Positions 1 through 31,403 of a stretch of 31,403 nucleotides of DNA are shown in pieces. A program made the position numbers and the translations under genes. The first letter of the stretch is position 1, and every line of letters starts with the position of its first letter. Location of the stretch: the IMG/VR virus record IMGVR_UViG_2623620492_000013, one strand, 5' to 3'. This stretch comes from a virus (lineage: Duplodnaviria; Heunggongvirae; Uroviricota; Caudoviricetes). The notes beneath the pieces are model-generated. The model was not told the origin of the DNA. It worked only from the letters and a program-made list of their open reading frames with translations, and made no database searches.

Positions 1-723
1 AACACTCTGACGTTAATGGATAAAGGTTATTACTCACTGGGACTGTTAAATGCCTGGAGCCTGGCGGGAGAACACCGCCACTGGATGATACCTCTCAGAA
101 AGGGAGCGCAATATGAAGAGATCAGAAAACTGGGTAAAGGCGATCATCTGGTGAAGCTGAAAACCAGCCCGCAGGCACGAAAAAAGTGGCCGGGACTGGG
201 AAATGAAGTGACTGCCCGCCTGCTGACCGTGACGCGCAAAGGAAAAGTCTGCCATCTGCTGACGTCGATGACGGACGCCATGCGCTTCCCCGGAGGAGAA
301 ATGGGGGATCTGTACAGTCATCGCTGGGAAATCGAACTGGGATACAGGGAGATAAAACAGACGATGCAACGGAGCAGGCTGACGCTGAGAAGTAAAAAGC
401 CGGAGCTTGTGGAGCAAGAGCTGTGGGGTGTCTTACTGGCTTATAATCTGGTGAGATATCAGATGATTAAAATGGCGGAACATCTGAAAGGTTACTGGCC
501 GAATCAACTGAGTTTCTCAGAATCATGCGGAATGGTGATGAGAATGCTGATGACATTGCAGGGCGCTTCACCGGGACGTATACCGGAGCTGATGCGCGAT
601 CTTGCAAGTATGGGACAACTTGTGAAATTACCGACAAGAAGGGAAAGGGCCTTCCCGAGAGTGGTAAAGGAGAGGCCCTGGAAATACCCCACAGCCCCGA
701 AAAAGAGCCAGTCAGTTGCTTAA
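1..723 (+). CDS. IS4-family DDE transposase, 3' portion (5' end lies outside the window)
   Basis: Reading frame is open from base 1 to the stop at 723. The C-terminus carries the IS4-family signature Y-(2)-R-(3)-E-(6)-K in YSHRWEIELGYREIK. Confidence 0.75.
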   Translation, partial: NTLTLMDKGYYSLGLLNAWSLAGEHRHWMIPLRKGAQYEEIRKLGKGDHLVKLKTSPQARKKWPGLGNEVTARLLTVTRKGKVCHLLTSMTDAMRFPGGEMGDLYSHRWEIELGYREIKQTMQRSRLTLRSKKPELVEQELWGVLLAYNLVRYQMIKMAEHLKGYWPNQLSFSESCGMVMRMLMTLQGASPGRIPELMRDLASMGQLVKLPTRRERAFPRVVKERPWKYPTAPKKSQSVA

Positions 724-4093: not shown

Positions 4094-4206
4094 ACCAAGC
4101 CGATTTCCTCCGTTACCAGGCAGAAAGCGTTAAGCGCGCCAGCATGCCGCCAGTAGCAAAGCACAGCCAGACCAAAACCAACCAGCCTCAGAAGGAAGCC
4201 GCATAA
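4090..4206 (+). CDS. Small hypothetical protein (38 aa, absent from the ORF track)
   Basis: ATGA overlap with the ninG stop and ATAATG overlap with the Q start. Weak evidence. Confidence 0.3.
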   Translation: MNQADFLRYQAESVKRASMPPVAKHSQTKTNQPQKEAA

Positions 4207-4706
4207 TGAAACTGGAATTAACCAACGACCAGCATCAATGGGTAGACCAGTGGCTCCAGTTGTGGGGCGCATGGTGCCAGACCGGCAAGATTGATAAAGC
4301 GATGATCAACATGATTGCCAGATTCATGGCTACCGTCGAGCCCCAGCAAGCATCACGACCGGTATGTAGTGATGATGACGGGATGCTCATTGATGCTGTC
4401 ATTCGTCACTATCTGAAGAATGTGGATGAAAATGCCTGGCGGGTTGTCTTCGCCTACTACGTTTGTAACTCCAGCGAGATCCGAATTGCATCATGGCAGC
4501 ATGCAGTAAGTAAGCCTCGCCTGATGAAGACGCGTGGCGGAAATCAGTATAAACACCCAAGCATCTCGACAATCCGTAGAGAGGTGAAGCAAATCATCAA
4601 TGCCTCACTGTTCTGTTTGTACCAACCGCTGCAAAATGCGTTTAACAATCGCGAAAATGTGAGGAAAATTGCAAAAAATCCTCATAACGCGCTTGCTTTT
4701 CAATGA
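4206..4706 (+). CDS. Late-gene antitermination protein Q
   Basis: Position between the nin genes and the lysis cassette, followed by tandem intrinsic terminators. N-terminal QW/W-rich region resembles Q-family proteins as recalled. Confidence 0.7.
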   Translation: MKLELTNDQHQWVDQWLQLWGAWCQTGKIDKAMINMIARFMATVEPQQASRPVCSDDDGMLIDAVIRHYLKNVDENAWRVVFAYYVCNSSEIRIASWQHAVSKPRLMKTRGGNQYKHPSISTIRREVKQIINASLFCLYQPLQNAFNNRENVRKIAKNPHNALAFQ

Positions 4707-5316: not shown

Positions 5317-5824
5317 GAAGAGTGGCGCGGCCGGGATCGTTTGTTCAGTGGCTACAATTATCGCAATCGTGATGAATGCGGGCCATGTCAGGACTAACGA
5401 GCGCGGGCTGGAGTTAATCGGCAACGCTGAATCTTGCCGACGTGATCCGTATGTGTGCCCGGCAGGTGTGCTTACTGACGGAATGGGTAATACGCATGGC
5501 GTAAAGCTCGGAACCGTTAAGTCTGACCAGCAGATCGCAGCCGAGTGGGAGCGCAACATCCTTGATGCTGAGTTCTGTGTTAACCGCTACGGGAATGGCA
5601 GAAAGCTATCTGACAATACTTTCTCGGCAGCTGTATCGGTAACGTTTCGTGCTGGCTGCGGAAACATGCGCACCTCCACGATGTTCTCTCTTCTCAGAAG
5701 TGGGGATATCACGGCGGCATGCAACCAGTTCCCTCGCTGGGTATGGGGGGGAGGCAAGGTTCTGCCTGGTCTGGTTACTCGTGCCGGAAAAGAAGAAGCG
5801 CTCTGCCTGGACGGTGTGAAATGA
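5294..5824 (+). CDS. SAR endolysin (phage lysozyme, P21 R-like)
   Basis: N-terminal Gly/Ala-rich signal-anchor-release segment ([16 protein letters not shown]) and ELIGNAE...DPY.CPAGV...GNTHG lysozyme motifs. GTG start at 5294 overlaps the holin end. Confidence 0.85.
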
Positions 5825-6282
5825 GCCGGTTAACAGCAATCATCTGTGCTTTCGTTATATGTCTGCTGGTCTCCATGGACTGGGCGATTAACCATTACCG
5901 CGAAAACGCCATCACCTACAAAGAACAGCGCGATAAAGCCACTGAGAAACTCAGCCTGGCTAACGCCACCATAAAAGACATGCAGACCCGCCAGCGAGAG
6001 GTGGCTGCACTGGATGCCAAATACACCGGAGAACTGGCTGATGCGAAAGAAACCATTGAGCGTCTGCATAGCGATGTCATTGCTGGCCGTAAGCGGCTGC
6101 AGCTCAACGCAAACTGTCCCGCGAACGGAACGGCCGGCGCCAGCAGCATGGGCGATGCTTCCGGCCCCCGACTTACTGACTCCGCTGAACGGGATTATTT
6201 CACCCTCAGAGAGCGAATCGTCACAGTGACGAAGCAGGTCGGCTATCTGCAGGACTACATCAAAGAGCAATGTATTGAGTGA
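5821..6282 (+). CDS. Rz: i-spanin Rz
   Basis: N-terminal transmembrane segment then coiled-coil region; follows the endolysin; contains an embedded out-of-frame lipoprotein ORF. Confidence 0.85.
6044..6229 (+). CDS. Rz1: o-spanin Rz1 (lipoprotein embedded in Rz, +1 frame)
   Basis: [20 protein letters not shown] has a lipobox; Pro-rich mature part; lies wholly inside Rz. Confidence 0.8.
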
Positions 6283-6345
6283 TTTGGCTTTCAATAATTT
6301 GGGAATGTGCAATATATTAACCACCAAAACTATATGGAGGTTAAT

Positions 6346-7029
6346 ATGTCTGCTTGGGAGTGTCCTTTTTGCGGTAGGTTGGCTGTTTATGATTCAATGC
6401 AGAAAAAACGTGATAGCTTCTCAGTTTCTGGGGATACCAAGTTTGGAGTCCTCGTTTTCGAGTCTTTCGTAAACATCTGCCCAAACCCAGAATGCAAAGA
6501 ATTTACATACATTACAACGATGTCTACAGGAAAATATCAGGCCGGTTACTATATACCTGATGATCTCCTAGAGACGTGGGTTAACAGGCCTAACGGAATT
6601 TTTAAACAGTTTCCTGATTATGTGCCGAAGCCGATTTTAGATGACTATAAAGAGGCGGTCTTAATCAAAAACCTTTCACCTAAAGCTTCTGCAACTTTGT
6701 CACGCAGGTGTCTTCAAGGAATGATTAGGAGCGTCTGGAATGTTAAGCCCGCGAGACTTGTTGACGAAATAAAAGCCATCGAGGGGCAGATTGAATCGAA
6801 TGTTTGGAAAGCAATCGATGCCGTAAGGAATATTGGCAACATTGGCGCTCATATGGAAAATGATATCAATATCATTGTTGATGTCGATCCAGACGAAGCT
6901 GAGATGCTGATAGGCCTCCTCGAGCTTCTGATTCAAGAGTGGTATGTTGAAAAGCATGAAAGGCAACTACGAATTGACGCCATTACCGCTTTAGCGGCTG
7001 AGAAAAAAGCATTAAAACAAACAAAATAA
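6346..7029 (+). CDS. Zinc-ribbon plus DUF4145-like domain protein (candidate defence/abortive-infection moron)
   Basis: Strong RBS (GGAGG) before ATG 6346. N-terminal CPFC...CPNPEC zinc ribbon. C-terminal VRNIGNIGAHMEND...EAEMLIGLLELLIQEWY matches the DUF4145 pattern as recalled. Gene is AT-rich relative to its neighbours and has its own terminator. Confidence 0.6.
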   Translation: MSAWECPFCGRLAVYDSMQKKRDSFSVSGDTKFGVLVFESFVNICPNPECKEFTYITTMSTGKYQAGYYIPDDLLETWVNRPNGIFKQFPDYVPKPILDDYKEAVLIKNLSPKASATLSRRCLQGMIRSVWNVKPARLVDEIKAIEGQIESNVWKAIDAVRNIGNIGAHMENDINIIVDVDPDEAEMLIGLLELLIQEWYVEKHERQLRIDAITALAAEKKALKQTK

Positions 7030-7052
7030 ACCGCCTACGGGCGGTTTTTTGT
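7028..7052 (+). terminator. Intrinsic terminator
   Basis: ccgcc-tacg-ggcgg hairpin followed by tttttt. Confidence 0.65.
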
Positions 7053-7116
7053 TGCCATCACCATGGGGTAGCCCATCGTAATGGCAATATCCACATAAGC
7101 GGATAGAGAGGCCTCA

Positions 7117-7320
7117 ATGTCCGACACCTACCAAATCACTATCACCACTACATCGAAAGATACGTTCACTGGCACGATGAATCGAAGCCAGCCTGAAATC
7201 GTTAATGGGTTCGTGGCATTGGCTACCGACACGGGTGAATGGCGTTACTTTCGGCCGGACAGCGTGGAGCAGTTCCACTTTGTACCAGTGTTAGAAGAAA
7301 AAGCATCAGAGGACGCTTAG
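7117..7320 (+). CDS. Hypothetical small protein (67 aa)
   Basis: Stand-alone ORF in the AT-rich moron island. Confidence 0.45.
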   Translation: MSDTYQITITTTSKDTFTGTMNRSQPEIVNGFVALATDTGEWRYFRPDSVEQFHFVPVLEEKASEDA

Positions 7321-7343: not shown

Positions 7344-7517
7344 TTACTGATCTACCATTACACTATGAATAGTAAGGCCGTTCTTATCTTTGAAAACCAC
7401 CGTTAAAGGCAATTCTTTGTCTTGTTCTGGGTTCCCTGTTTTGAGAGAGAGGACATCAATTTTCAATTCATAATTCCCAGTACTGATAAGCATTTTTGCG
7501 AAGTCTTCGAGTGTCAT
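7344..7517 (-). CDS. Hypothetical small protein (57 aa)
   Basis: Reverse-strand ORF with AGGAGG RBS before the ATG at 7517 (MTLEDF...). Convergent with the 67-aa gene and divergent from terS. Confidence 0.5.
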   Translation of the reverse strand: MTLEDFAKMLISTGNYELKIDVLSLKTGNPEQDKELPLTVVFKDKNGLTIHSVMVDQ

Positions 7518-9596: not shown

Positions 9597-10946
9597 ATGA
9601 ATGACAAATTAACTCTCGCCGTCAACCATGCGTTGAACGATGCGCGGATGGCTCGCGCCCGTATGGGGCTGATGGCGCCTACAATGGGGCTGGACAACAA
9701 GCGCCACTCTGCATGGTGCGAGTATGGATTCCCTGAGCAGGTAACCTACGAAAACCTTTATGCCCTGTACCGACGCGGTGGTATTGCCCACGGCGCAGTA
9801 GAGAAACTGGTGGGCAAGTGCTGGCAGACTAACCCGGAAATCATCGAGGGTGATCAGGCAGACAAAAAGCGCAAAGAAACCGCCTGGGAGAAAAAGGCCA
9901 AACAGGTATTCACCAACCGATTCTGGCGCTCATTCTCTGAGGCCGATCGCCGTCGTCTGGTGGGCCGTTATGCTGGCATCCTTCTGCACGTCCGCGATGA
10001 AAAAGACTGGAACCTTCCGGTAACCAAAGGGCGAGGTCTTCAGAAAATATCGGTGGCGTGGGCAGGATCGCTTACGGTGAGCGAGTGGGACACTGGCCTG
10101 AACTCGAAGACGTACGGCCAGCCTCAGATGTGGCAGTACGCCGAACGCTTGCCGAATGGTTCAAGTCGCCGCGTCAATATCCACCCCGATCGCGTTTTCA
10201 TCCTTGGTGATTACTCAGACGATGCTATTGGCTTCCTTGAGCCAGCTTATAACGCCTTTGTAAGCCTGGAGAAGGTAGAGGGTGGATCCGGCGAGTCATT
10301 CCTGAAGAACGCCGCGCGCCAGCTTAATGTCAACTTTGAGAAGGAAATCGACTTCAACAATCTTGCGTCACTTTATGGCGTGAGCATTGACGAGTTGCAG
10401 GATAAGTTTAACGAAGTTGCCGGGGAAATGAACCGTGGCAACGATGTTTTGATGACAACCCAAGGGGCCACGGTCACACCGCTGGTGACTGCTGTAGCTG
10501 ATCCTTCAGCGACCTATAACGTCAACCTGCAAACGGCTGCCGCCGGTGTTGATATCCCGACGCGCATTCTGGTTGGTAATCAGCAGGCCGAGCGCTCCAG
10601 CACCGAAGACCAGAAATACTTTAATGCTCGTTGTCAGTCGCGACGCGTAGACCTCTCTTTCGAAATAGAGGACTTCTGCGACAAGCTTATCGATCTACAA
10701 ATCGTAGACTCAGTCAGTCAGAAGGCTGTTATCTGGGATGACCTTAACGAACAGACCGGTACTGAGAAGCTCACTAACGCCAAGACCATGGGCGAAATTA
10801 ACCAGACCATGCAGGGCAGCGGCGAAGAGCCAGCGTTCAGCCGTGAAGAGATTCGTACAGCTGCGGGTTATGACAATGACGACGAAGAGCCGTTAGGAGA
10901 AGAGGATGGCGACGAACAAGACGAAGCCACCAATTCTACCGCGTAA
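9597..10946 (+). CDS. Portal protein
   Basis: About 450 aa between terL and the head-morphogenesis gene, with an acidic C-terminal tail. Confidence 0.8.
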   Translation: MNDKLTLAVNHALNDARMARARMGLMAPTMGLDNKRHSAWCEYGFPEQVTYENLYALYRRGGIAHGAVEKLVGKCWQTNPEIIEGDQADKKRKETAWEKKAKQVFTNRFWRSFSEADRRRLVGRYAGILLHVRDEKDWNLPVTKGRGLQKISVAWAGSLTVSEWDTGLNSKTYGQPQMWQYAERLPNGSSRRVNIHPDRVFILGDYSDDAIGFLEPAYNAFVSLEKVEGGSGESFLKNAARQLNVNFEKEIDFNNLASLYGVSIDELQDKFNEVAGEMNRGNDVLMTTQGATVTPLVTAVADPSATYNVNLQTAAAGVDIPTRILVGNQQAERSSTEDQKYFNARCQSRRVDLSFEIEDFCDKLIDLQIVDSVSQKAVIWDDLNEQTGTEKLTNAKTMGEINQTMQGSGEEPAFSREEIRTAAGYDNDDEEPLGEEDGDEQDEATNSTA

Positions 10947-25044: not shown

Positions 25045-27021
25045 ATGGCTACGACACCTACCAACCTGTCAGTACCGAGCGAGTCCCCCCGCGATCTGAA
25101 ATTTAACGCAGGGAAAATTGATGAATTTGTGACATCGCTGGCACTTCAGTACATTGATCGCTTTGGCAATGCTCATTACACCATCGAAGGCCTGCGCTGG
25201 ATGGCGCAGCAGGCTATTTCCCAGTATGGGTGGGTTCCGATCGGAACATTCCAGGATGGTGCAACATTAACTCTGCCTAACCAAATCCTGAAAGACACCA
25301 CCGACGGTGAATACTATCGCTGGGACGGTTCATTTTTGCCATCAGGGAAGGTTGTGCCAAATGGTTCTACGCCAGGATCAACAGGTGGGGTTGGTGTAGG
25401 TGCATGGATAAGTGTTGGTGATTCGGCATTGCGCTCAATGCTTGCTTCTGAGCAAGGAGTTTCCATGGTTGGCGGCATTGCCATGGAGCTCGACTCTCAG
25501 GCCGATTTGGCAACAAACACAACTGTTCAGGGACGGCTGGTGGCAGTAAAGAACACTGTCGGTAGTTACAATAAATACTCCATAATTCCAAACTCTGGTG
25601 TGCTTGGCGATGGCGATGTAATCATCGACAGGGTGGATGGATTGCAGGCAGAGCTTCAGATTGAAGGGGTTCTGGATGTACGGGCTTTTGCAAAGTCTGG
25701 TAGGACAGACCAACAAATAATTCAGGCGGCATTAGATTACGCTGGATCTAAATCAGGTCATTGGGTTGTTGGCTTGACGGCCAAAGATAAAACCGGAACA
25801 CCATGGAGATTCAGCACACTTAACGTACCTGACAGCACTGTTTTTCAGGGGCATGGTGGCGCTCTTAAGCTAAATGACAATGTCTGTGTCGATGCTTCAG
25901 TTAGCTATTACTTGCTGCATAACATAAACGGCAATGATGTATGGCTGGACGGGTTATATATCGATGGCAATATGAGCAATAACTCCTTGTTCACCGTTGC
26001 TGATCTTGTAACCCTCATCGGAGAAGGGTCAAAAATCACCAATTGCACCCTTATGAATGCCCCCGACTCTGGTCTAATGTTCTCAGGTGTAAAGAATGGT
26101 CTAGCGTCTGCAAACACCATCGGCAATGGCAGAGATGTTGCTATCTATGCAAATGCAAGCGCAGACGGCAGCGCAAGGAACAATGTGTTATCTGACAATG
26201 TTCTGTACGGATTCCCGGCAGGAGGAATAGGATTTAAACGTTATTTTGCTGATTGTGTAGCCAGCGGGAACGCAATTTATCTCTGTGGAAACGGCGTGAC
26301 ATTTGAGGACTTTACTGTTGAGACCGAAGGTAAATTCCCCAAAAGGATTACGCTGTCTGGTACTTTTATGCGAGACATCGGCTTTCCACACCGCGCCACT
26401 GCTAACGTAGCAGAGCGAGGAATTAGCATTCAGCGTGCCTCTGATATCAGCATCACTGGTCTTCAGACAGTTAACGTTTCTGGCAATATATTATACATTG
26501 GAAATGGCACAGATATCTGCGTTGATAACGCCATGCTTAGAGGTTATGTTGCAAGTCCACAAAGCAACGGAAATAACGGAGTGCTAGTCGTTAATGCCCA
26601 AGGAGGGCACCTGAGTAATGTGAATGTTACCGCAGTGGCAAGCAGGGCAGGATATTTCCAGACCGTTAATGGCATGTCCGTTCGTGGCGGAAGATGGGTC
26701 AGTTCAGGGACTCAGTCTGGCATCAGGGTAGATGCTACCGCTCAATTTTCAATATTTAATCCTGACTATATTTCTGGTGGATCTGGAGCTGACGAAGAGT
26801 GGTTTGAAGGAGCAACAGGGATATCGAACGGATACATCCGGGCTAATGCAACAGGCCCAGGCAGATACGGAATAAGAGAGCTTTCTGCTGGGCAGGGCAC
26901 TAACCCAAATACAAGGCTTATCCCCAGATTTATTGGAGAGAAATGCGTTACCTTGTCAGATAGCGCAATCTGGATGGCAAAAGGTATGTCTAACTCTGAT
27001 TGGGTTAAGTTATCTAACTGA
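25045..27021 (+). CDS. Tail spike protein with right-handed beta-helix domain (putative polysaccharide depolymerase)
   Basis: 658 aa. The N-terminal ~110 aa look like a conserved tail-attachment module. The rest has Gly/Asn/Val-rich repeats (GNGRDVAIYANASADGSARNNVLSDNVLYG) typical of pectate-lyase-like beta-helices, and is more AT-rich than the N-terminus. Confidence 0.75.
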   Translation: MATTPTNLSVPSESPRDLKFNAGKIDEFVTSLALQYIDRFGNAHYTIEGLRWMAQQAISQYGWVPIGTFQDGATLTLPNQILKDTTDGEYYRWDGSFLPSGKVVPNGSTPGSTGGVGVGAWISVGDSALRSMLASEQGVSMVGGIAMELDSQADLATNTTVQGRLVAVKNTVGSYNKYSIIPNSGVLGDGDVIIDRVDGLQAELQIEGVLDVRAFAKSGRTDQQIIQAALDYAGSKSGHWVVGLTAKDKTGTPWRFSTLNVPDSTVFQGHGGALKLNDNVCVDASVSYYLLHNINGNDVWLDGLYIDGNMSNNSLFTVADLVTLIGEGSKITNCTLMNAPDSGLMFSGVKNGLASANTIGNGRDVAIYANASADGSARNNVLSDNVLYGFPAGGIGFKRYFADCVASGNAIYLCGNGVTFEDFTVETEGKFPKRITLSGTFMRDIGFPHRATANVAERGISIQRASDISITGLQTVNVSGNILYIGNGTDICVDNAMLRGYVASPQSNGNNGVLVVNAQGGHLSNVNVTAVASRAGYFQTVNGMSVRGGRWVSSGTQSGIRVDATAQFSIFNPDYISGGSGADEEWFEGATGISNGYIRANATGPGRYGIRELSAGQGTNPNTRLIPRFIGEKCVTLSDSAIWMAKGMSNSDWVKLSN

Positions 27022-28255
27022 AGTCAGGCCGCTGATGCGGCCTTTTCTCTGATAAAAACTGATTTATTAACTGCATAGTGTAAATAAGCATTAATACTTG
27101 AAAAACGAAAAGTACTCTCTTGCCTGAGCCATATGCTGAAGGCGAGAACATAATCATCATCACTGACGCACACGCCAGGAGAATGGTGAAACAACTGTAA
27201 AATGCATCATTTTTACACCTGGCATTAAAAACTGCGAGGCATATCATTGAACTAATTGTCAGTAGAGTCACTGCGTGAGATATGTAAACAGTAGTTCCAG
27301 CCCAATTACTTCCTGATAGATAATTAGAGTTTACCATTCCTTTGAATATATTCGCCCCAAGGAGAAAAGATAAGAACATTATTAATTTTACGGCTACAAT
27401 CGCAGCCGAAATTGATGGCAGGACTTTAAAATCTTTTCTTTTCACATAGAGTAACAACAAAGTAAGCATAGCGATATTGATTAGTACGTTGCCAGAAGAT
27501 GATACGTGACTGCTTAAGACATCCACACCTATTGATAGTTTTTGAAAGATGCCATAGCTAACGTAATCTGGAAGCCAGTTTTTTGACTCACTAAAATATC
27601 TTAACTTATTACCGGGAGCAGAAAAAAGAATAATGGCGCAAGCAATAGTTGTAACGAACATTGCGGCTATGATTGGAGTTATCCTTTTGAGATAGATAGC
27701 TCTGCATGCTAGAAATATCAAGAAGCAGATAGATATCTGTTCGTTGAACCCAAAGTACATAGCAGGTAAAACAGAGAGTGACTTAAGTATAATATTTAAT
27801 GATTTCTCGTTAAGTACTGCATAAACAGACAGTAGGCAAAGAGTTGCTGGCATTAGATAGTTATATGACCCTGCGATCCACCATGATGCATCCGCATTAA
27901 CTTCAGGTTCTATTAAGAAAAACATAAATAAAGAAACTGTGAAAGGAATCATCGCTCCTTGCTTTTCTCGAAGAGTTATCTTACTTATAATAAAAGATAT
28001 CAAAATAACACATGCTGGTATGAAAGTTTTCCAAAAGTATTCATAACGTATTGTATAGACCATGAGAGCATCTATAGTTAATCTCCCACTCCATTTTATA
28101 TATCTGTCATATATAACATCATATACATTAGAGTTTAAAAGCAAGCGTGAGAAATTTAAATCATCTCCTGAGTGACGCAAGGATAAACCAGAAAAAAGAA
28201 ATGCAATAATAGCGATAATAAGCATGGCGGCAGTGACTTTTATGGCCACTATCAT
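27014..28255 (-). CDS. Polytopic inner-membrane protein (putative serotype-specific O-antigen glucosyltransferase, GtrC-like)
   Basis: About 413 aa, many predicted transmembrane helices, very AT-rich, last gene of an operon that begins gtrA-gtrB. Start taken at ATG 28255 (TAAAATG junction); 28282 is the alternative. Confidence 0.6.
   Translation of the reverse strand: MIVAIKVTAAMLIIAIIAFLFSGLSLRHSGDDLNFSRLLLNSNVYDVIYDRYIKWSGRLTIDALMVYTIRYEYFWKTFIPACVILISFIISKITLREKQGAMIPFTVSLFMFFLIEPEVNADASWWIAGSYNYLMPATLCLLSVYAVLNEKSLNIILKSLSVLPAMYFGFNEQISICFLIFLACRAIYLKRITPIIAAMFVTTIACAIILFSAPGNKLRYFSESKNWLPDYVSYGIFQKLSIGVDVLSSHVSSSGNVLINIAMLTLLLLYVKRKDFKVLPSISAAIVAVKLIMFLSFLLGANIFKGMVNSNYLSGSNWAGTTVYISHAVTLLTISSMICLAVFNARCKNDAFYSCFTILLACASVMMIMFSPSAYGSGKRVLFVFQVLMLIYTMQLINQFLSEKRPHQRPDFS
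27026..27047. terminator. Hairpin between the convergent tail spike and gtr genes
   Basis: aggccgc-tgat-gcggcct palindrome. It overlaps the last codons of the reverse-strand membrane protein gene. Confidence 0.45.
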
Positions 28256-28256
28256 T

Positions 28257-28721
28257 TTATTTGCATTGGTAATGGATTTCATAATTATGGAGTCCGTCGT
28301 TAATCAATATAGCAATATTGCCAGTGAATTTTTTAACCTTTTTGTTTCTTACTTGAGAGTTAAACCCAGAGCGATCATAAAGCAATGGTTTTCCAAAAGC
28401 TCGACTTACATCACTTCTTCTGGTCATTGACTTGGGTATGCGCAACCATTTATCTCCGCCTATGCCAGCATAGATATTAACACTATAAAGTGTTTGCAAA
28501 TTGTAGTTTTTTACTGCTGCCCAACCATTAACTACAAGTCTGCCGTCCTCAACCCGGCATCTATCTATATGATATATAATTCCTGAACTTGTTTTAGCAT
28601 TGTCAAATTTAAATGTCGAAACGTCTGCTTTGTTAATATAAAAATAAAAGCCAGCAGGCAACATAATAGATGTTACAAACAATCCGACAAGTAATGTTTT
28701 TACAGGTAGTGAGACCTTCAT
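28257..28721 (-). CDS. Membrane-anchored hypothetical protein in the gtr operon
   Basis: 154 aa with one N-terminal transmembrane segment and a soluble domain. Coupled to gtrB upstream (ATGA) and the membrane protein downstream. Confidence 0.55.
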
Positions 28722-29635
28722 CCTTTCCTCTTCAAAATATATCTAGGACGGCTCTTTACTTCGGTGTAAATTCTTCCGATGTACTCACCAAGCACCCCGA
28801 TACCAATCAATTGGACTCCACCAAGGAAAAGGATAGAAACAAGAAGTGACGGGTAGCCCCGCACTGCGTTACCAAAAGCAAGGGTATCAACTATCATCCA
28901 TGAGCCATAGAGGAACGCCACGCCTGCAACCAGAAGGCCGATGTAAGTCCACATGCGAAGCGGGAAAGTAGAGAAACTCGTGATACCCTCAAGTGCCAGG
29001 TTCCACAACTTCCAGCCGTTAAATTTCGTACTTCCTGCGACGCGTTCTGCGCGGGCATATTCAACGACATCTGTACGGCCGCCAACCCAGCTCAATACGC
29101 CCTTCATGAACAGGTTGCGCTCTGGCATGAGCTTAATGTTTTCCACCACCTCGCGGGACATAAGGCGGAAGTCACCAACGTTTTCTTCAATCTTCGGGTT
29201 GCTGATTTTGTTGTGCAGCTTATAGAACCATTCAGCGGTCTTGCGCTTCAGTCTGCCATCTGTAGAGCGATCAGAGCGTTTAGCGAGAACCATATCAGCA
29301 CCGGCCTGCCATTTCTCGATAAGGTGAGGAATGACTTCGATAGGGTCCTGCAAGTCTACGTCAATCGGGATAATTGCTTCACCGGTCGCGTGGTCAAGGC
29401 CGGCGAACAGGGCTGGTTCTTTCCCAAAGTTACGAGTAAATGACAATGGAACAACAAGCGTATCGGCAACAGCAAGCGCGTTAATAATTGATTCTGTCGC
29501 GTCTTTGCTGCCGTCATTGATGAATACTATCTCGACTTCATGCTGCTGAAGGCCTTCAAATTCCCGAACCGTTTTATAAAAAATCGGTATCGCGTCTTCT
29601 TCGTTGAAGACGGGAACGACCAGAGAAATTTTCAT
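28718..29635 (-). CDS. gtrB: Bactoprenol glucosyltransferase GtrB (GT2 family)
   Basis: 305 aa with the N-terminal glycosyltransferase-2 fold motif VVPVFNEE...INDGSKD and two C-terminal transmembrane helices; close match to GtrB as recalled from Shigella and Salmonella serotype-converting phages. Confidence 0.9.
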
Positions 29636-29994
29636 TTCGCATCCCTAAAGACAATAAACTTAGAATAGAAAAAGCCACATACAAGACTAATGGCGGAGAA
29701 CGCCACCAGTGTGACGATTGGCGGTAAGCCACACCTGTCAGCAGCCCAACCTACAGCAGCACTCAGCGTTCCCATAAACCCAACGTAAAGCATGTAACGC
29801 AGCGTGGAAGTGGATGCTTTAAAAGTGAAGCGTGCGTTAGCGTAGAAACTAAAGCTGACGGCTACCACGAAACCTGCAAAGTTAGCCAATGCCTGACTTG
29901 TGGATAGGCCATACACGCAAACACCAAACACGACCCAGTGAATGAGTGTGTTCAGTACGCCAATCGATGTGTACTTAGCAAAAAGTTTTAACAT
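29632..29994 (-). CDS. gtrA: Bactoprenol-linked glucose translocase GtrA
   Basis: 120-aa four-helix membrane protein; [20 protein letters not shown]...FIVFRDAK matches GtrA closely. Confidence 0.9.
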
Positions 29995-30734: not shown

Positions 30735-31403
30735 TCAGACGGGCTCGATTAACTCCGGGCCCTGATTCTTCACATTACCAACAGCGCGCGACACTGCGTG
30801 CCAGATAAATGCATCTGCTGGCACCGAACCGTCGGAAACAATCTCCTCTGCTTCTTTCCCGCCCACATCCTGCCGCATCCATTCGCGTGCTGCTTCCGGT
30901 GACAGAACGAGTTGCCTGCGGTCGTGAATATCGACCAGTCCTTTATCGGCAGCCGCCGTGACTATCATAAAGCCTTCCGCTTCATCATCACGCTCAAACG
31001 GCGTACTGCCTATCGCCGCCATGAATATCGGCTTACCGTCCGCCCGATGAATGAAGTACGGCTGCTTCTTTTCGCCTTGCTTCTTCCATTCGAACCAGCC
31101 ATCAGCAAAGACTATCGCCCGGCCATGTTGCCAGAGCGGTTTGAACATCCGACTGGTGGCCGCAGTTTCCACACGTGCGTTTATCAGAGGCGGCTTATCC
31201 CACCATCCTGGAGCATAGCCCCAGTAAACCGGATCGAGGTGTAGTTGTTCATCTCGTTCGCTCAGCAGCAAAACTTTAGTGCCTGGCGCCACGTTGTACC
31301 GGCCAATGGGTTCCGGGTCGAACGGAATGTCACACTCGGCCTCTTCAGCGATTAACGCCAGATAATCTTCACGGGTCATTGATTGAGAGAAACGTCCGCA
31401 CAT
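30735..31403 (-). CDS. yedK: SOS-response-associated peptidase (SRAP), YedK-like host gene
   Basis: 222 aa starting MCGRF (the Cys2 nucleophile is the SRAP hallmark); the start codon is the last three bases of the window. Confidence 0.8.
   Translation of the reverse strand: MCGRFSQSMTREDYLALIAEEAECDIPFDPEPIGRYNVAPGTKVLLLSERDEQLHLDPVYWGYAPGWWDKPPLINARVETAATSRMFKPLWQHGRAIVFADGWFEWKKQGEKKQPYFIHRADGKPIFMAAIGSTPFERDDEAEGFMIVTAAADKGLVDIHDRRQLVLSPEAAREWMRQDVGGKEAEEIVSDGSVPADAFIWHAVSRAVGNVKNQGPELIEPV

What the first reader, a model, noticed from the sequence alone, without database searches (positions are those of the whole stretch)
6283..7060. AT-rich single-gene moron encoding a zinc-ribbon plus DUF4145-like protein, between lysis cassette and terminase
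The gene at 6346-7029 is markedly AT-richer than the flanking lysis and packaging genes and has its own promoter-like region, strong RBS and terminator, so it looks like an independently expressed moron. The protein pairs an N-terminal CxxC...CxxxxC zinc ribbon with a C-terminal region that I read as DUF4145. That domain is often fused to restriction or nuclease components and enriched in defence islands. A stand-alone protein of this type in a prophage is a plausible superinfection-exclusion or abortive-infection effector with no characterised mechanism that I know of.
Basis: partly seen in the sequence, partly recalled or inferred. Interest (0 to 1): 0.75.

Follow-up and report, generated by a model that had tools for sequence, protein, structure and literature searches.

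The report
Prophage zinc-ribbon HEPN RNase defence gene
This AT-rich single gene in an E. coli prophage encodes a zinc-ribbon plus HEPN-RNase protein that is a distant relative of the recently solved anti-phage protein RAZR (PD-T7-4), so it is a real but largely explained kind of phage-defence cargo gene.

Summary

This architecture is that of PD-T7-4, renamed RAZR (Nature 2026). RAZR is an abortive-infection RNase whose zinc-finger domain binds ring-shaped phage proteins. Its DUF4145/HEPN domain, with catalytic R146 and H154, then cleaves RNA.

The window protein shares the linker, the HEPN domain and the RxxGNxxxH motif (R161, H169). It nevertheless belongs to a separate, widespread subfamily. 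It scores 43 bits on the PD-T7-4 model, against 213-340 bits for true RAZR relatives. Its zinc ribbon is larger and cannot be aligned with RAZR's.

Within the subfamily the zinc ribbon is hypervariable and is swapped between otherwise near-identical proteins, as expected of a sensor domain. No neighbouring gene is conserved.

Verdict: a divergent, untested member of a known kind of defence system; its trigger is unknown.

The parts
6283..6345 (+). Upstream intergenic region (GC 0.30). It holds the conserved block TGCAATATATTAACC (6308-6322) with the -10-like TATATT (6313-6318), a weak -35 position (about 6291-6296), and the Shine-Dalgarno GGAGG (6336-6340).
   Evidence: Sequence; GC. The block is conserved in L008 and L012 while the flanks diverge. 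The scan calls a promoter with this -10 in L008 and L012 but not in the window.
6346..7029 (+). CDS, 227 aa: a RAZR/PD-T7-4-like protein with a zinc-ribbon domain and a HEPN (DUF4145) domain. RefSeq WP_063610194.1, annotated only as 'DUF4145 domain-containing protein'.
6346..6585 (+). N-terminal Cys4 zinc-ribbon domain (aa 1-80), the putative sensor. The cysteine codons are C6 6361-6363, C9 6370-6372, C45 6478-6480 and C50 6493-6495. The model is all-beta (strands 3-5, 12-14, 19-27, 36-44, 53-65, 68-80).
   Evidence: The cysteines are invariant. AF2 model. This is the most variable region (mean column identity 0.48) and is swapped between close relatives. Only the first knuckle [WF]xCPxCG aligns with RAZR.
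6586..6648 (+). Linker (aa 81-101; RPNGIFKQFPDYVPKPILDDY). It aligns with the conserved RAZR linker (residues 65-87).
   Evidence: The hhalign alignment starts at aa 81 against RAZR residue 65. P82, P90, P94, D100 and Y101 are invariant. The role of the RAZR linker is described.
6649..6945 (+). DUF4145/HEPN domain (aa 102-200) with the motif R161-x2-G164-N165-x3-H169. The R161 codon is 6826-6828 and the H169 codon is 6850-6852.
6946..7026 (+). C-terminal tail (aa 201-227), part of a long predicted helix (aa 182-226). It has no counterpart by sequence in the RAZR tail.
   Evidence: AF2 secondary structure. The alignments end at about aa 204-217.
7028..7053 (+). Intrinsic terminator (stem 7028-7047, then a T-run). 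It belongs to the conserved right edge of the cargo slot, because it is shared with a prophage that carries a different cargo gene.
   Evidence: It is conserved in L011, where a different 66-aa cargo occupies the slot.
7053..7086 (+). Second conserved hairpin (TTGCCATCACCATGGGGTAGCCCATCGTAATGGCAA) just after the terminator. Function unknown; it is part of the slot's conserved right flank.
   Evidence: RNA fold z = -4.97 for 7020-7120. Conserved in L008, L011, L012 and L018.

Best explanation
The gene is a prophage-carried, single-protein abortive-infection defence of the RAZR/PD-T7-4 type.

Proposed mechanism:
- In the lysogen it is made from a weak promoter of its own. During lytic growth it is also read through from the late operon.
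- The N-terminal Cys4 zinc-ribbon domain acts as the infection sensor by binding a protein of a superinfecting phage.
- Binding and oligomerisation bring HEPN domains together so that R161 and H169 from paired subunits form an active RNase site.
- RNA cleavage stops translation, and the infected cell fails to release phage.

Shown here:
- the gene and its expression signals;
- the domain architecture and the HEPN fold;
- conservation of the catalytic motif and the linker, and homology to RAZR over the linker and HEPN domain;
- hypervariability and swapping of the zinc ribbon;
- the absence of a conserved partner gene;
- recurrent prophage cargo slots.

Inferred from RAZR, not shown:
- RNase activity;
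- an anti-phage phenotype;
- abortive infection;
- activation by ring-shaped phage proteins such as portals or recombinases.
For: Family matches:
- PADLOC PD-T7-4: E 5.7e-12, covering aa 3-203 and 82% of the model.
- RAZR chain 9y9c_OA: phmmer E 2.9e-6; family-profile E 6.2e-9.
- BLASTP against the reconstructed RAZR-Ec: 32% identity over 111 aa, E 4e-10.
- hhalign of the two clades: 97.9% probability, E 4.4e-13, covering linker plus HEPN.
- DUF4145 above Pfam's cut-off.

Conserved residues:
- R161 and H169 are invariant and align with RAZR R146 and H154, whose mutation abolishes defence.
- The four cysteines are invariant.

Sensor-like variability:
- The zinc ribbon is much more variable than the HEPN domain. 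P0002 is 64% against 97% identical; P0038 is 19% against 90%.
- Other relatives keep a 51-59% identical HEPN domain behind unalignable CPxC...CPxC N-termini.
- This matches the RAZR finding that the zinc-finger domain is the most variable part and sets specificity.

Genomic context:
- No neighbouring gene family is shared by more than 4 of 80 loci.
- It occupies the same Rz-to-terminase slot in E. coli, Klebsiella, Cronobacter, Serratia and Kluyvera prophages.
- It lies directly after cI in a Vibrio P2-like prophage.
- It lies at the left end of Streptococcus temperate phage genomes, 3-5 kb in for seven of eight records.
Against: - No member of this subfamily has been tested, as far as the literature searches show.
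- The PD-T7-4 model gives the subfamily only 40-47 bits, against 213-340 bits for the RAZR clade.
- The zinc ribbon is about 15 residues longer than RAZR's. Apart from the first knuckle it cannot be aligned with it (local hhalign 55% over 14 columns).
- The RAZR inter-dimer residues D179, D180 and R184 correspond to Q197, E198 and E202.
- The C-terminal tails differ.
- Foldseek against the PDB gave no significant hit and did not list 9y9c among its top 50 hits.
- The prophage makes its own portal ring from the same late operon, so ring sensing would require blindness to self.
- The window copy has a poor -35.
Confidence: 0.65

Rival explanations
1. It has the same effector but a different trigger logic. 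The protein is a defensive HEPN RNase, but its larger, unalignable zinc ribbon senses something other than a 170-angstrom phage protein ring. Candidates are a monomeric phage protein, a nucleic acid, or a host perturbation. Activation would then not need a 24-mer ring assembly.
For: - Zinc-ribbon homology to RAZR is limited to one knuckle.
- The inter-dimer salt-bridge residues are not conserved.
- The authors of DS-38, another ZF-HEPN defence protein, also argue for a distinct use of its zinc finger.
- The gene is co-transcribed with its own phage's portal gene.
Against: - The RAZR zinc-finger domain is itself the most variable part of the protein and already recognises two unrelated proteins.
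- The linker, which RAZR needs for higher-order oligomerisation, is conserved.
Confidence: 0.22
2. It is a phage-benefit RNase rather than host defence. The HEPN protein would be made late in the lytic cycle from the Q-dependent operon, to degrade host or competitor RNA or to tune late gene expression. Alternatively it acts as a selfish toxin that stabilises the prophage.
For: - It has the same orientation as the late operon, and the scan shows no terminator between Rz and the gene.
- HEPN domains are common toxins.
Against: - In Vibrio the gene sits directly after the cI repressor.
- In Streptococcus phages it lies at the left end of the genome, on the minus strand.
- It has a conserved -10 of its own and a terminator.
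- The slot is empty or holds other cargo in related prophages, so the gene is dispensable for lysis and packaging.
- No antitoxin-like partner is conserved.
- Most homologues in non-enteric phyla show no shared phage neighbour.
Confidence: 0.1
3. It is a DNA-binding or regulatory zinc-finger protein, as the PHROG label suggests, or a Lar-like restriction-alleviation protein.
For: - PHROG 1305 is labelled 'DNA binding protein' (E 1e-33).
- There are weak matches to Lar: Pfam PF14354 E 0.11 and TIGR03655 E 0.12.
Against: - The Lar matches are far below their cut-offs (13 bits against 28.6 and 39.6) and cover only the CxxC knuckle.
- The PHROG label is an inherited annotation, not a test.
- The C-terminal two-thirds is a HEPN fold with invariant Arg and His.
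Confidence: 0.03

Closest known systems
RAZR (ring-activated zinc-finger RNase) = PD-T7-4, E. coli UMB1727; PDB 9y9c; PMC13017515, PMC9519451
   Same: - It is a single protein of similar size (219 against 227 aa).
- It has an N-terminal Cys4 zinc ribbon starting with [WF]xCPxCG.
- The Pro-rich linker is conserved.
- It has a C-terminal DUF4145/HEPN domain with RxxGNxxxH (Rx7H, one residue beyond the canonical Rx4-6H).
- The zinc ribbon is the most variable region.
- It is carried on mobile elements and has no partner gene.
   Different: - Identity is only 32%, and only over the linker and HEPN domain.
- The PD-T7-4 model gives 43 bits, against 213-340 bits for the RAZR clade.
- The second cysteine pair is CxxxxC, not CxxC.
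- The zinc ribbon has a longer beta-hairpin (80 against 65 aa).
- The HEPN signature is IGNIGAHME(K/N)DI, not VGNxAVHPGEI.
- The inter-dimer residues D179, D180 and R184 are not kept.
- The tail is a long C-terminal helix rather than RAZR's tail.
- It sits in the lysis-terminase slot of lambdoid prophages, whereas a RAZR-clade relative examined here lies in an integrase island.
- It is untested.
DS-38 (HEP2), a ZF + HEPN defence protein from the DefensePredictor study (WP_001313577.1)
   Same: It is a validated single-protein E. coli defence that combines a zinc finger with a HEPN domain. Only its HEPN domain superimposes on PD-T7-4.
   Different: DS-38 is encoded by an 1101-nt gene (366 aa), so it is not this 227-aa protein. 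No sequence was available here for a direct comparison.
Pfam DUF4145 (PF13643), a HEPN superfamily family (Anantharaman et al. 2013)
   Same: It is a member above the gathering threshold. Zinc-ribbon fusions and links to defence had already been noted.
   Different: The Pfam family is broad and includes fusions to restriction enzymes, helicases and membrane domains. This is one specific stand-alone architecture within it.
Lambdoid prophage morons in the lysis-terminase gap (for example lambda bor; from my own knowledge)
   Same: It is an AT-rich cargo gene with its own expression signals, in a variable slot after Rz. It is present or absent among related prophages.
   Different: It is co-oriented with the late operon. 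The cargo is an immunity RNase rather than a surface or virulence factor.

Membership tests
RAZR / PD-T7-4 | N-terminal Cys4 zinc-ribbon (zinc-finger) domain | tested here: met
   C6, C9, C45 and C50 are invariant in 36 homologues. The model is all-beta for aa 3-80. The first knuckle WECPFCG matches RAZR FNCPHCG.
RAZR / PD-T7-4 | Zinc-finger domain homologous to that of RAZR (same sensor fold and register) | tested here: inconclusive
   hhalign on the zinc-ribbon regions alone aligns only 14 columns: 55% probability in local mode and 2.6% in global mode. The full-length profile comparison omits the zinc ribbon. Only five RAZR-clade sequences with a complete zinc ribbon were available.
RAZR / PD-T7-4 | Conserved linker between the zinc-finger and HEPN domains | tested here: met
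   hhalign aligns aa 81-101 with RAZR residues 65-87. P82, P90, P94, D100 and Y101 are invariant.
RAZR / PD-T7-4 | C-terminal DUF4145 domain with a HEPN fold | tested here: met
RAZR / PD-T7-4 | Catalytic Arg and His (R146, H154) in the RxxGNxxxH motif | tested here: met
   R161, G164, N165 and H169 are invariant and align with R146 and H154.
RAZR / PD-T7-4 | Scores as a family member with the PADLOC PD-T7-4 model | tested here: inconclusive
   The score is 43.5 bits (E 5.7e-12), covering aa 3-203 and model positions 13-185 of 211. RAZR-Ec scores 339.7 bits and its clade 213-295 bits, while this subfamily scores 40-47 bits. PADLOC's own calling thresholds were not available.
RAZR / PD-T7-4 | Single-gene system without a conserved partner | tested here: met
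   All-against-all comparison of ORFs within 2.5 kb in 80 loci from diverse species found no neighbour family in more than 4 loci.
RAZR / PD-T7-4 | Higher-order oligomerisation through HEPN-HEPN and ZFD-ZFD contacts between dimers | not testable with these tools
   No multimer prediction was available. At residue level, RAZR D179, D180 and R184 correspond to Q197, E198 and E202, so they are not conserved. W199 and Y200 are invariant here instead.
RAZR / PD-T7-4 | Activation by ring-shaped phage proteins (portal, Gp77 recombinase), non-specific RNA cleavage, and an abortive-infection phenotype | not testable with these tools
   These need experiments. They are known only for RAZR-Ec and RAZR-Kv.
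Pfam DUF4145 (PF13643) | Score above the curated gathering threshold | tested here: met
   38.4 bits against 23.1, aa 102-189, model positions 1-84 of 88. All listed homologues carry PF13643.
HEPN superfamily | Alpha-helical HEPN core and an Rx4-6H catalytic motif | tested here: met
   The fold is met. The motif spacing is Rx7H, one residue longer than canonical and the same as in RAZR.
Phage moron (autonomous cargo gene) | Own promoter | tested here: inconclusive
   The scan finds no site in the window. The -10 TATATT is conserved, and promoters are called with it in L008 and L012. No transcript data were available.
Phage moron (autonomous cargo gene) | Terminator, deviant base composition, and presence/absence among related phages | tested here: met
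   Terminator. GC 0.418 against about 0.54, and GC3 0.41 against 0.62-0.69. The E. coli AST215 prophage has the same flanks with a different 66-aa cargo. Only 3 of 5426 complete E. coli genomes carry the gene.
Lar restriction-alleviation family | Score above the curated cut-off | tested here: not met
   PF14354 scores 13.2 bits against 28.6. TIGR03655 scores 12.7 bits against 39.6.

The most novel reading that the evidence does not exclude
This 'IGNIGAHME' subfamily may be a separate class of ZF-HEPN immune sensor. It comprises 360 clusters at 50% identity with E <= 1e-30, and it occurs in 540 species-representative genomes across many phyla. Its enlarged zinc ribbon is swapped like a cassette and may read a different feature of infection than RAZR's ring geometry. 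In lambdoid prophages the gene sits in the same late operon as the phage's own portal gene, so it would have to tell foreign assemblies from self. If so, the natural set of swapped zinc ribbons on a near-constant RNase would be a ready-made library for decoding how bacterial sensors recognise phage structural proteins.
Probability: 0.2. Interest if true: 0.6.

Novelty: new member of a known kind. Interest (0 to 1): 0.35.

Why it matters
The finding extends the newly solved RAZR mechanism to a much larger and more divergent group of proteins than the clade studied so far, which public annotation labels only 'DUF4145 domain-containing protein'.

It places that group in a defined cargo slot of lambdoid prophages, between Rz and the terminase genes. 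It also shows, from sequence alone, the pattern expected of a sensor-effector immunity protein: a hypervariable, exchangeable zinc ribbon on a conserved HEPN RNase.

It raises a testable question: how does a portal-sensing type of immunity protein coexist with its own phage's portal?

Tried and rejected
- Megablast of 6283-7060 against the phage collection found no match. tblastn found only Streptococcus temperate phages at 39-50% identity.
- Foldseek against BFVD gave one unnamed viral protein (E 4.6e-8, TMq 0.50) and nothing informative. The afdb50 library was unavailable.
- Rfam found no family anywhere in the window.
- DS-38 from the DefensePredictor study was considered as a possible identity and rejected on length (366 aa, WP_001313577.1).
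- Lar restriction alleviation was rejected because the matches are below threshold. The 'DNA binding protein' PHROG label was rejected as an untested annotation.
- A dedicated partner or antitoxin was rejected. The downstream 67-aa gene (phrog_6581) is also present next to a different cargo in L011, and no neighbour is conserved across 80 loci.
- The RAZR-Ec sequence was not directly retrievable. It was rebuilt from a frameshifted copy (P0227) and a partial copy (P0151). It was then checked against the length of the PDB chain (219 aa), the published positions AGN 68-70, R146 and H154, and a 339.7-bit PD-T7-4 score.
- I looked for a link between the zinc-ribbon allele and the portal family. None is evident in the few loci seen: PF06381 portals accompany zinc ribbons that are 19%, 34% and 100% identical, and a PF04860 portal accompanies one that is 51% identical.

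Full report
**1. What is in the sequence**

The + strand carries an ORF at 6346-7029 (ATG, 227 aa), with GGAGG at 6336-6340. An upstream GTG at 6307 would give 240 aa. However, homologues begin at the conserved MS[AS]W, so 6346 is the likely start.

The gene's GC content is 0.418 and its GC3 is 0.414. Rz has GC 0.539, TerS 0.527 and TerL 0.559, with GC3 of 0.62-0.69. Only 5.8% of equally long windows in the 31-kb window are as AT-rich.

A strong intrinsic terminator follows the stop codon: an 8-bp stem at 7028-7047, then a T-run.

Upstream lie the Q antiterminator (4206-4706), holin, SAR-type endolysin and Rz spanin. Downstream lie a 67-aa gene (phrog_6581), a small minus-strand ORF, TerS, TerL and a PF06381 portal gene.

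The exact DNA occurs in 3 of 5426 complete E. coli genomes, annotated as 'DUF4145 domain-containing protein', WP_063610194.1. The exact protein is recorded in Escherichia, and near-identical cluster members in Klebsiella and Enterobacter.

**2. The protein**

- Pfam DUF4145 is met: 38.4 bits against a cut-off of 23.1, aa 102-189.
- The PADLOC model PD-T7-4 matches aa 3-203 at E 5.7e-12.
- PHROG 1305 matches at E 1e-33.
- In an alignment of 36 homologues, C6, C9, C45 and C50 are invariant. So is the motif R161-x2-G164-N165-x3-H169.
- An AlphaFold2 model (mean pLDDT 84.6) has an all-beta N-terminal domain (aa 3-80) and a helical C-terminal domain (aa 95-226).

**3. What is known about this architecture**

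PD-T7-4 was found in a functional selection for anti-phage systems in E. coli (PMC9519451). In 2026 it was renamed RAZR, for ring-activated zinc-finger RNase (PMC13017515).

RAZR has an N-terminal Cys4 zinc-finger domain, a conserved linker, and a DUF4145 domain that is a divergent HEPN RNase. R146 and H154 are needed for defence. The protein forms a 24-mer around rings made by a phage recombinase (Gp77) or by portal proteins. It then cleaves RNA non-specifically and acts by abortive infection. The zinc-finger domain is the most variable region and sets phage specificity.

DUF4145 was assigned to the HEPN superfamily in 2013, with zinc-ribbon fusions already noted (PMC3710099).

**4. How close the window protein is to RAZR**

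The PDB chain 9y9c_OA (219 aa) matches the window protein at E 2.9e-6, and the family profile at E 6.2e-9. Both matches cover the linker and HEPN domain.

I rebuilt the RAZR-Ec sequence from a frameshifted copy and a partial copy. The rebuilt sequence fits the published length and residue numbers, and it scores 339.7 bits on the PD-T7-4 model.

- BLASTP gives 32% identity over 111 aa (E 4e-10). R161 aligns with R146 and H169 with H154.
- Profile-profile comparison of the two clades gives 97.9% probability (E 4.4e-13). It covers aa 81-215 against RAZR residues 65-193.

Three results mark the window protein as a separate subfamily:

- The PD-T7-4 model gives this clade only 40-47 bits, against 213-340 bits for RAZR-clade proteins.
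- The zinc ribbons align only at the first knuckle, [WF]xCPxCG (55% probability over 14 columns). The window domain is about 15 residues longer, and its second cysteine pair is CxxxxC.
- The RAZR inter-dimer residues D179, D180 and R184 correspond to Q197, E198 and E202.

The window protein is therefore a homologue with the same architecture, but not a member of the studied clade.

DS-38, another ZF-HEPN defence protein, is 366 aa and so is a different protein.

**5. Evidence on function from comparative data**

The subfamily is large:

- 7729 proteins with E <= 0.001 among the 8000 candidates that were scored.
- 360 clusters at 50% identity with E <= 1e-30, and 1487 with E <= 1e-10.
- 540 of 185,579 species-representative genomes, spread over many phyla at 45-60% identity.

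Within it, the zinc ribbon has a mean column identity of 0.48, against 0.79 for the HEPN domain. Close relatives show domain swapping: P0029, P0038, P0049 and P0064 are 86-91% identical in the HEPN domain but only 19-24% identical in the zinc ribbon. More distant relatives keep a 51-59% identical HEPN domain behind unalignable CPxC...CPxC N-termini. This is the pattern expected of a sensor domain under diversifying selection, and it parallels RAZR.

No neighbouring gene is conserved: at most 4 of 80 loci share any neighbour family. That supports a one-protein system.

**6. Genomic setting**

In E. coli, Klebsiella aerogenes, Cronobacter, Serratia and Kluyvera the gene sits between the lysis genes and the terminase genes of prophages. 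These prophages differ in Q antiterminator, holin, terminase and portal families (PF06381 or PF04860).

In a Vibrio P2-like prophage it directly follows the cI repressor gene. In seven of eight Streptococcus temperate phage records it lies 3-5 kb from the left end, on the minus strand.

An E. coli prophage (strain AST215) has the same flanks but a different 66-aa cargo gene. Homology with the window runs over 5821-6299 and resumes at 7004. The terminator and a second conserved hairpin (7053-7086) therefore belong to the conserved right edge of a cargo slot.

The upstream block TGCAATATATTAACC, with its -10-like TATATT, travels with the gene. It is identical in orthologues of 85% and 59% protein identity, and there the scan calls promoters at 10/12 and 9/12. 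The window copy has only 3 of 6 at the -35 position and is not called.

The gene is co-oriented with the late operon, and the scan shows no terminator between Rz and the gene. It is probably also transcribed late in lytic growth. This last point is an inference.

**7. Explanation, rivals and novelty**

The best-supported reading is a RAZR-like, single-protein abortive-infection RNase carried as prophage cargo (confidence 0.65). RNase activity, the defence phenotype and ring-templated activation are inferred from RAZR and are not shown here.

The main rival keeps the HEPN effector but proposes a different trigger logic. It rests on the unalignable zinc ribbon, the changed inter-dimer residues, and co-expression with the phage's own portal. 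A phage-benefit or toxin role and a DNA-binding or Lar-like role are less likely.

On novelty, this is a divergent and untested member of a known kind of system.

Noticed in passing
L003 657-6109 (E. coli FDAARGOS_1277, CP070103.1; same prophage as the window): In this copy of the prophage, about 5.5 kb lies between the Q gene and the holin gene. It carries two DDE transposases, a beta-lactamase gene and a resolvase. An antibiotic-resistance transposon has therefore inserted into the late-operon leader of the same phage.
   Followed up: no
window 27014-29994 (- strand): This is a second AT-rich cargo block (windows down to 33% GC) after the tail-spike gene (25045-27021). It encodes GtrA-like (PF04138), GtrB-like glycosyltransferase (PF00535), a 153-aa ORF with no Pfam match, and DUF6056 proteins. 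It looks like a gtrABC-type O-antigen modification (serotype-conversion) cluster.
   Followed up: partly
window 7344-7517 (- strand) and 7301-7318: A small minus-strand ORF (57 aa by public gene calls, GC 0.37) lies between the 67-aa gene and TerS, with a terminator-like hairpin downstream. It has no Pfam or PHROG match. It is probably another small cargo gene in the same variable gap.
   Followed up: partly
window 7053-7086: A conserved hairpin (TTGCCATCACC ATGGG gtag CCCAT CGTAATGGCAA) lies immediately after the terminator. It is retained in prophages with different cargo and different hosts (L008, L011, L012, L018). Its function is unknown, and there is no Rfam match.
   Followed up: partly
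L011 2845-3045 (E. coli AST215 prophage): The same Rz-to-terminator slot holds an unrelated 66-aa gene (WP_045622346.1, no Pfam match). Further on, a 171-aa minus-strand gene precedes TerS. The gap is a cargo hotspot.
   Followed up: partly
window about 9597-10946; L010 12315-13664: RefSeq names the prophage portal protein (PF06381, phrog_146) 'anti-CBASS protein Acb1 family protein'. This looks like a naming artefact.
   Followed up: no
window 16-723: The left end of the window encodes the C-terminal part of a DDE transposase (PF01609). An IS element appears to be inserted in or next to the prophage's early region.
   Followed up: no
P0136, P0139 (168 aa); L100-L102: Some RAZR-clade proteins, 91-92% identical to RAZR-Ec in the HEPN domain, are called with only the second CxxC pair. 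They appear to be truncated or alternative N-termini. One lies in an integrase/IS island rather than in a prophage late region.
   Followed up: partly
window 6860-6887 (- strand): An antisense promoter-like site (TCGACA-16-TATCAT with an upstream TG, 10/12) lies inside the HEPN-coding region. It is also present in L008. It may simply reflect the conserved coding sequence.
   Followed up: no
window 30735-31403 (- strand): An SRAP (YedK-like) gene lies at the right end of the window (PF02586). It may be a host gene, but the prophage boundary was not mapped.
   Followed up: no
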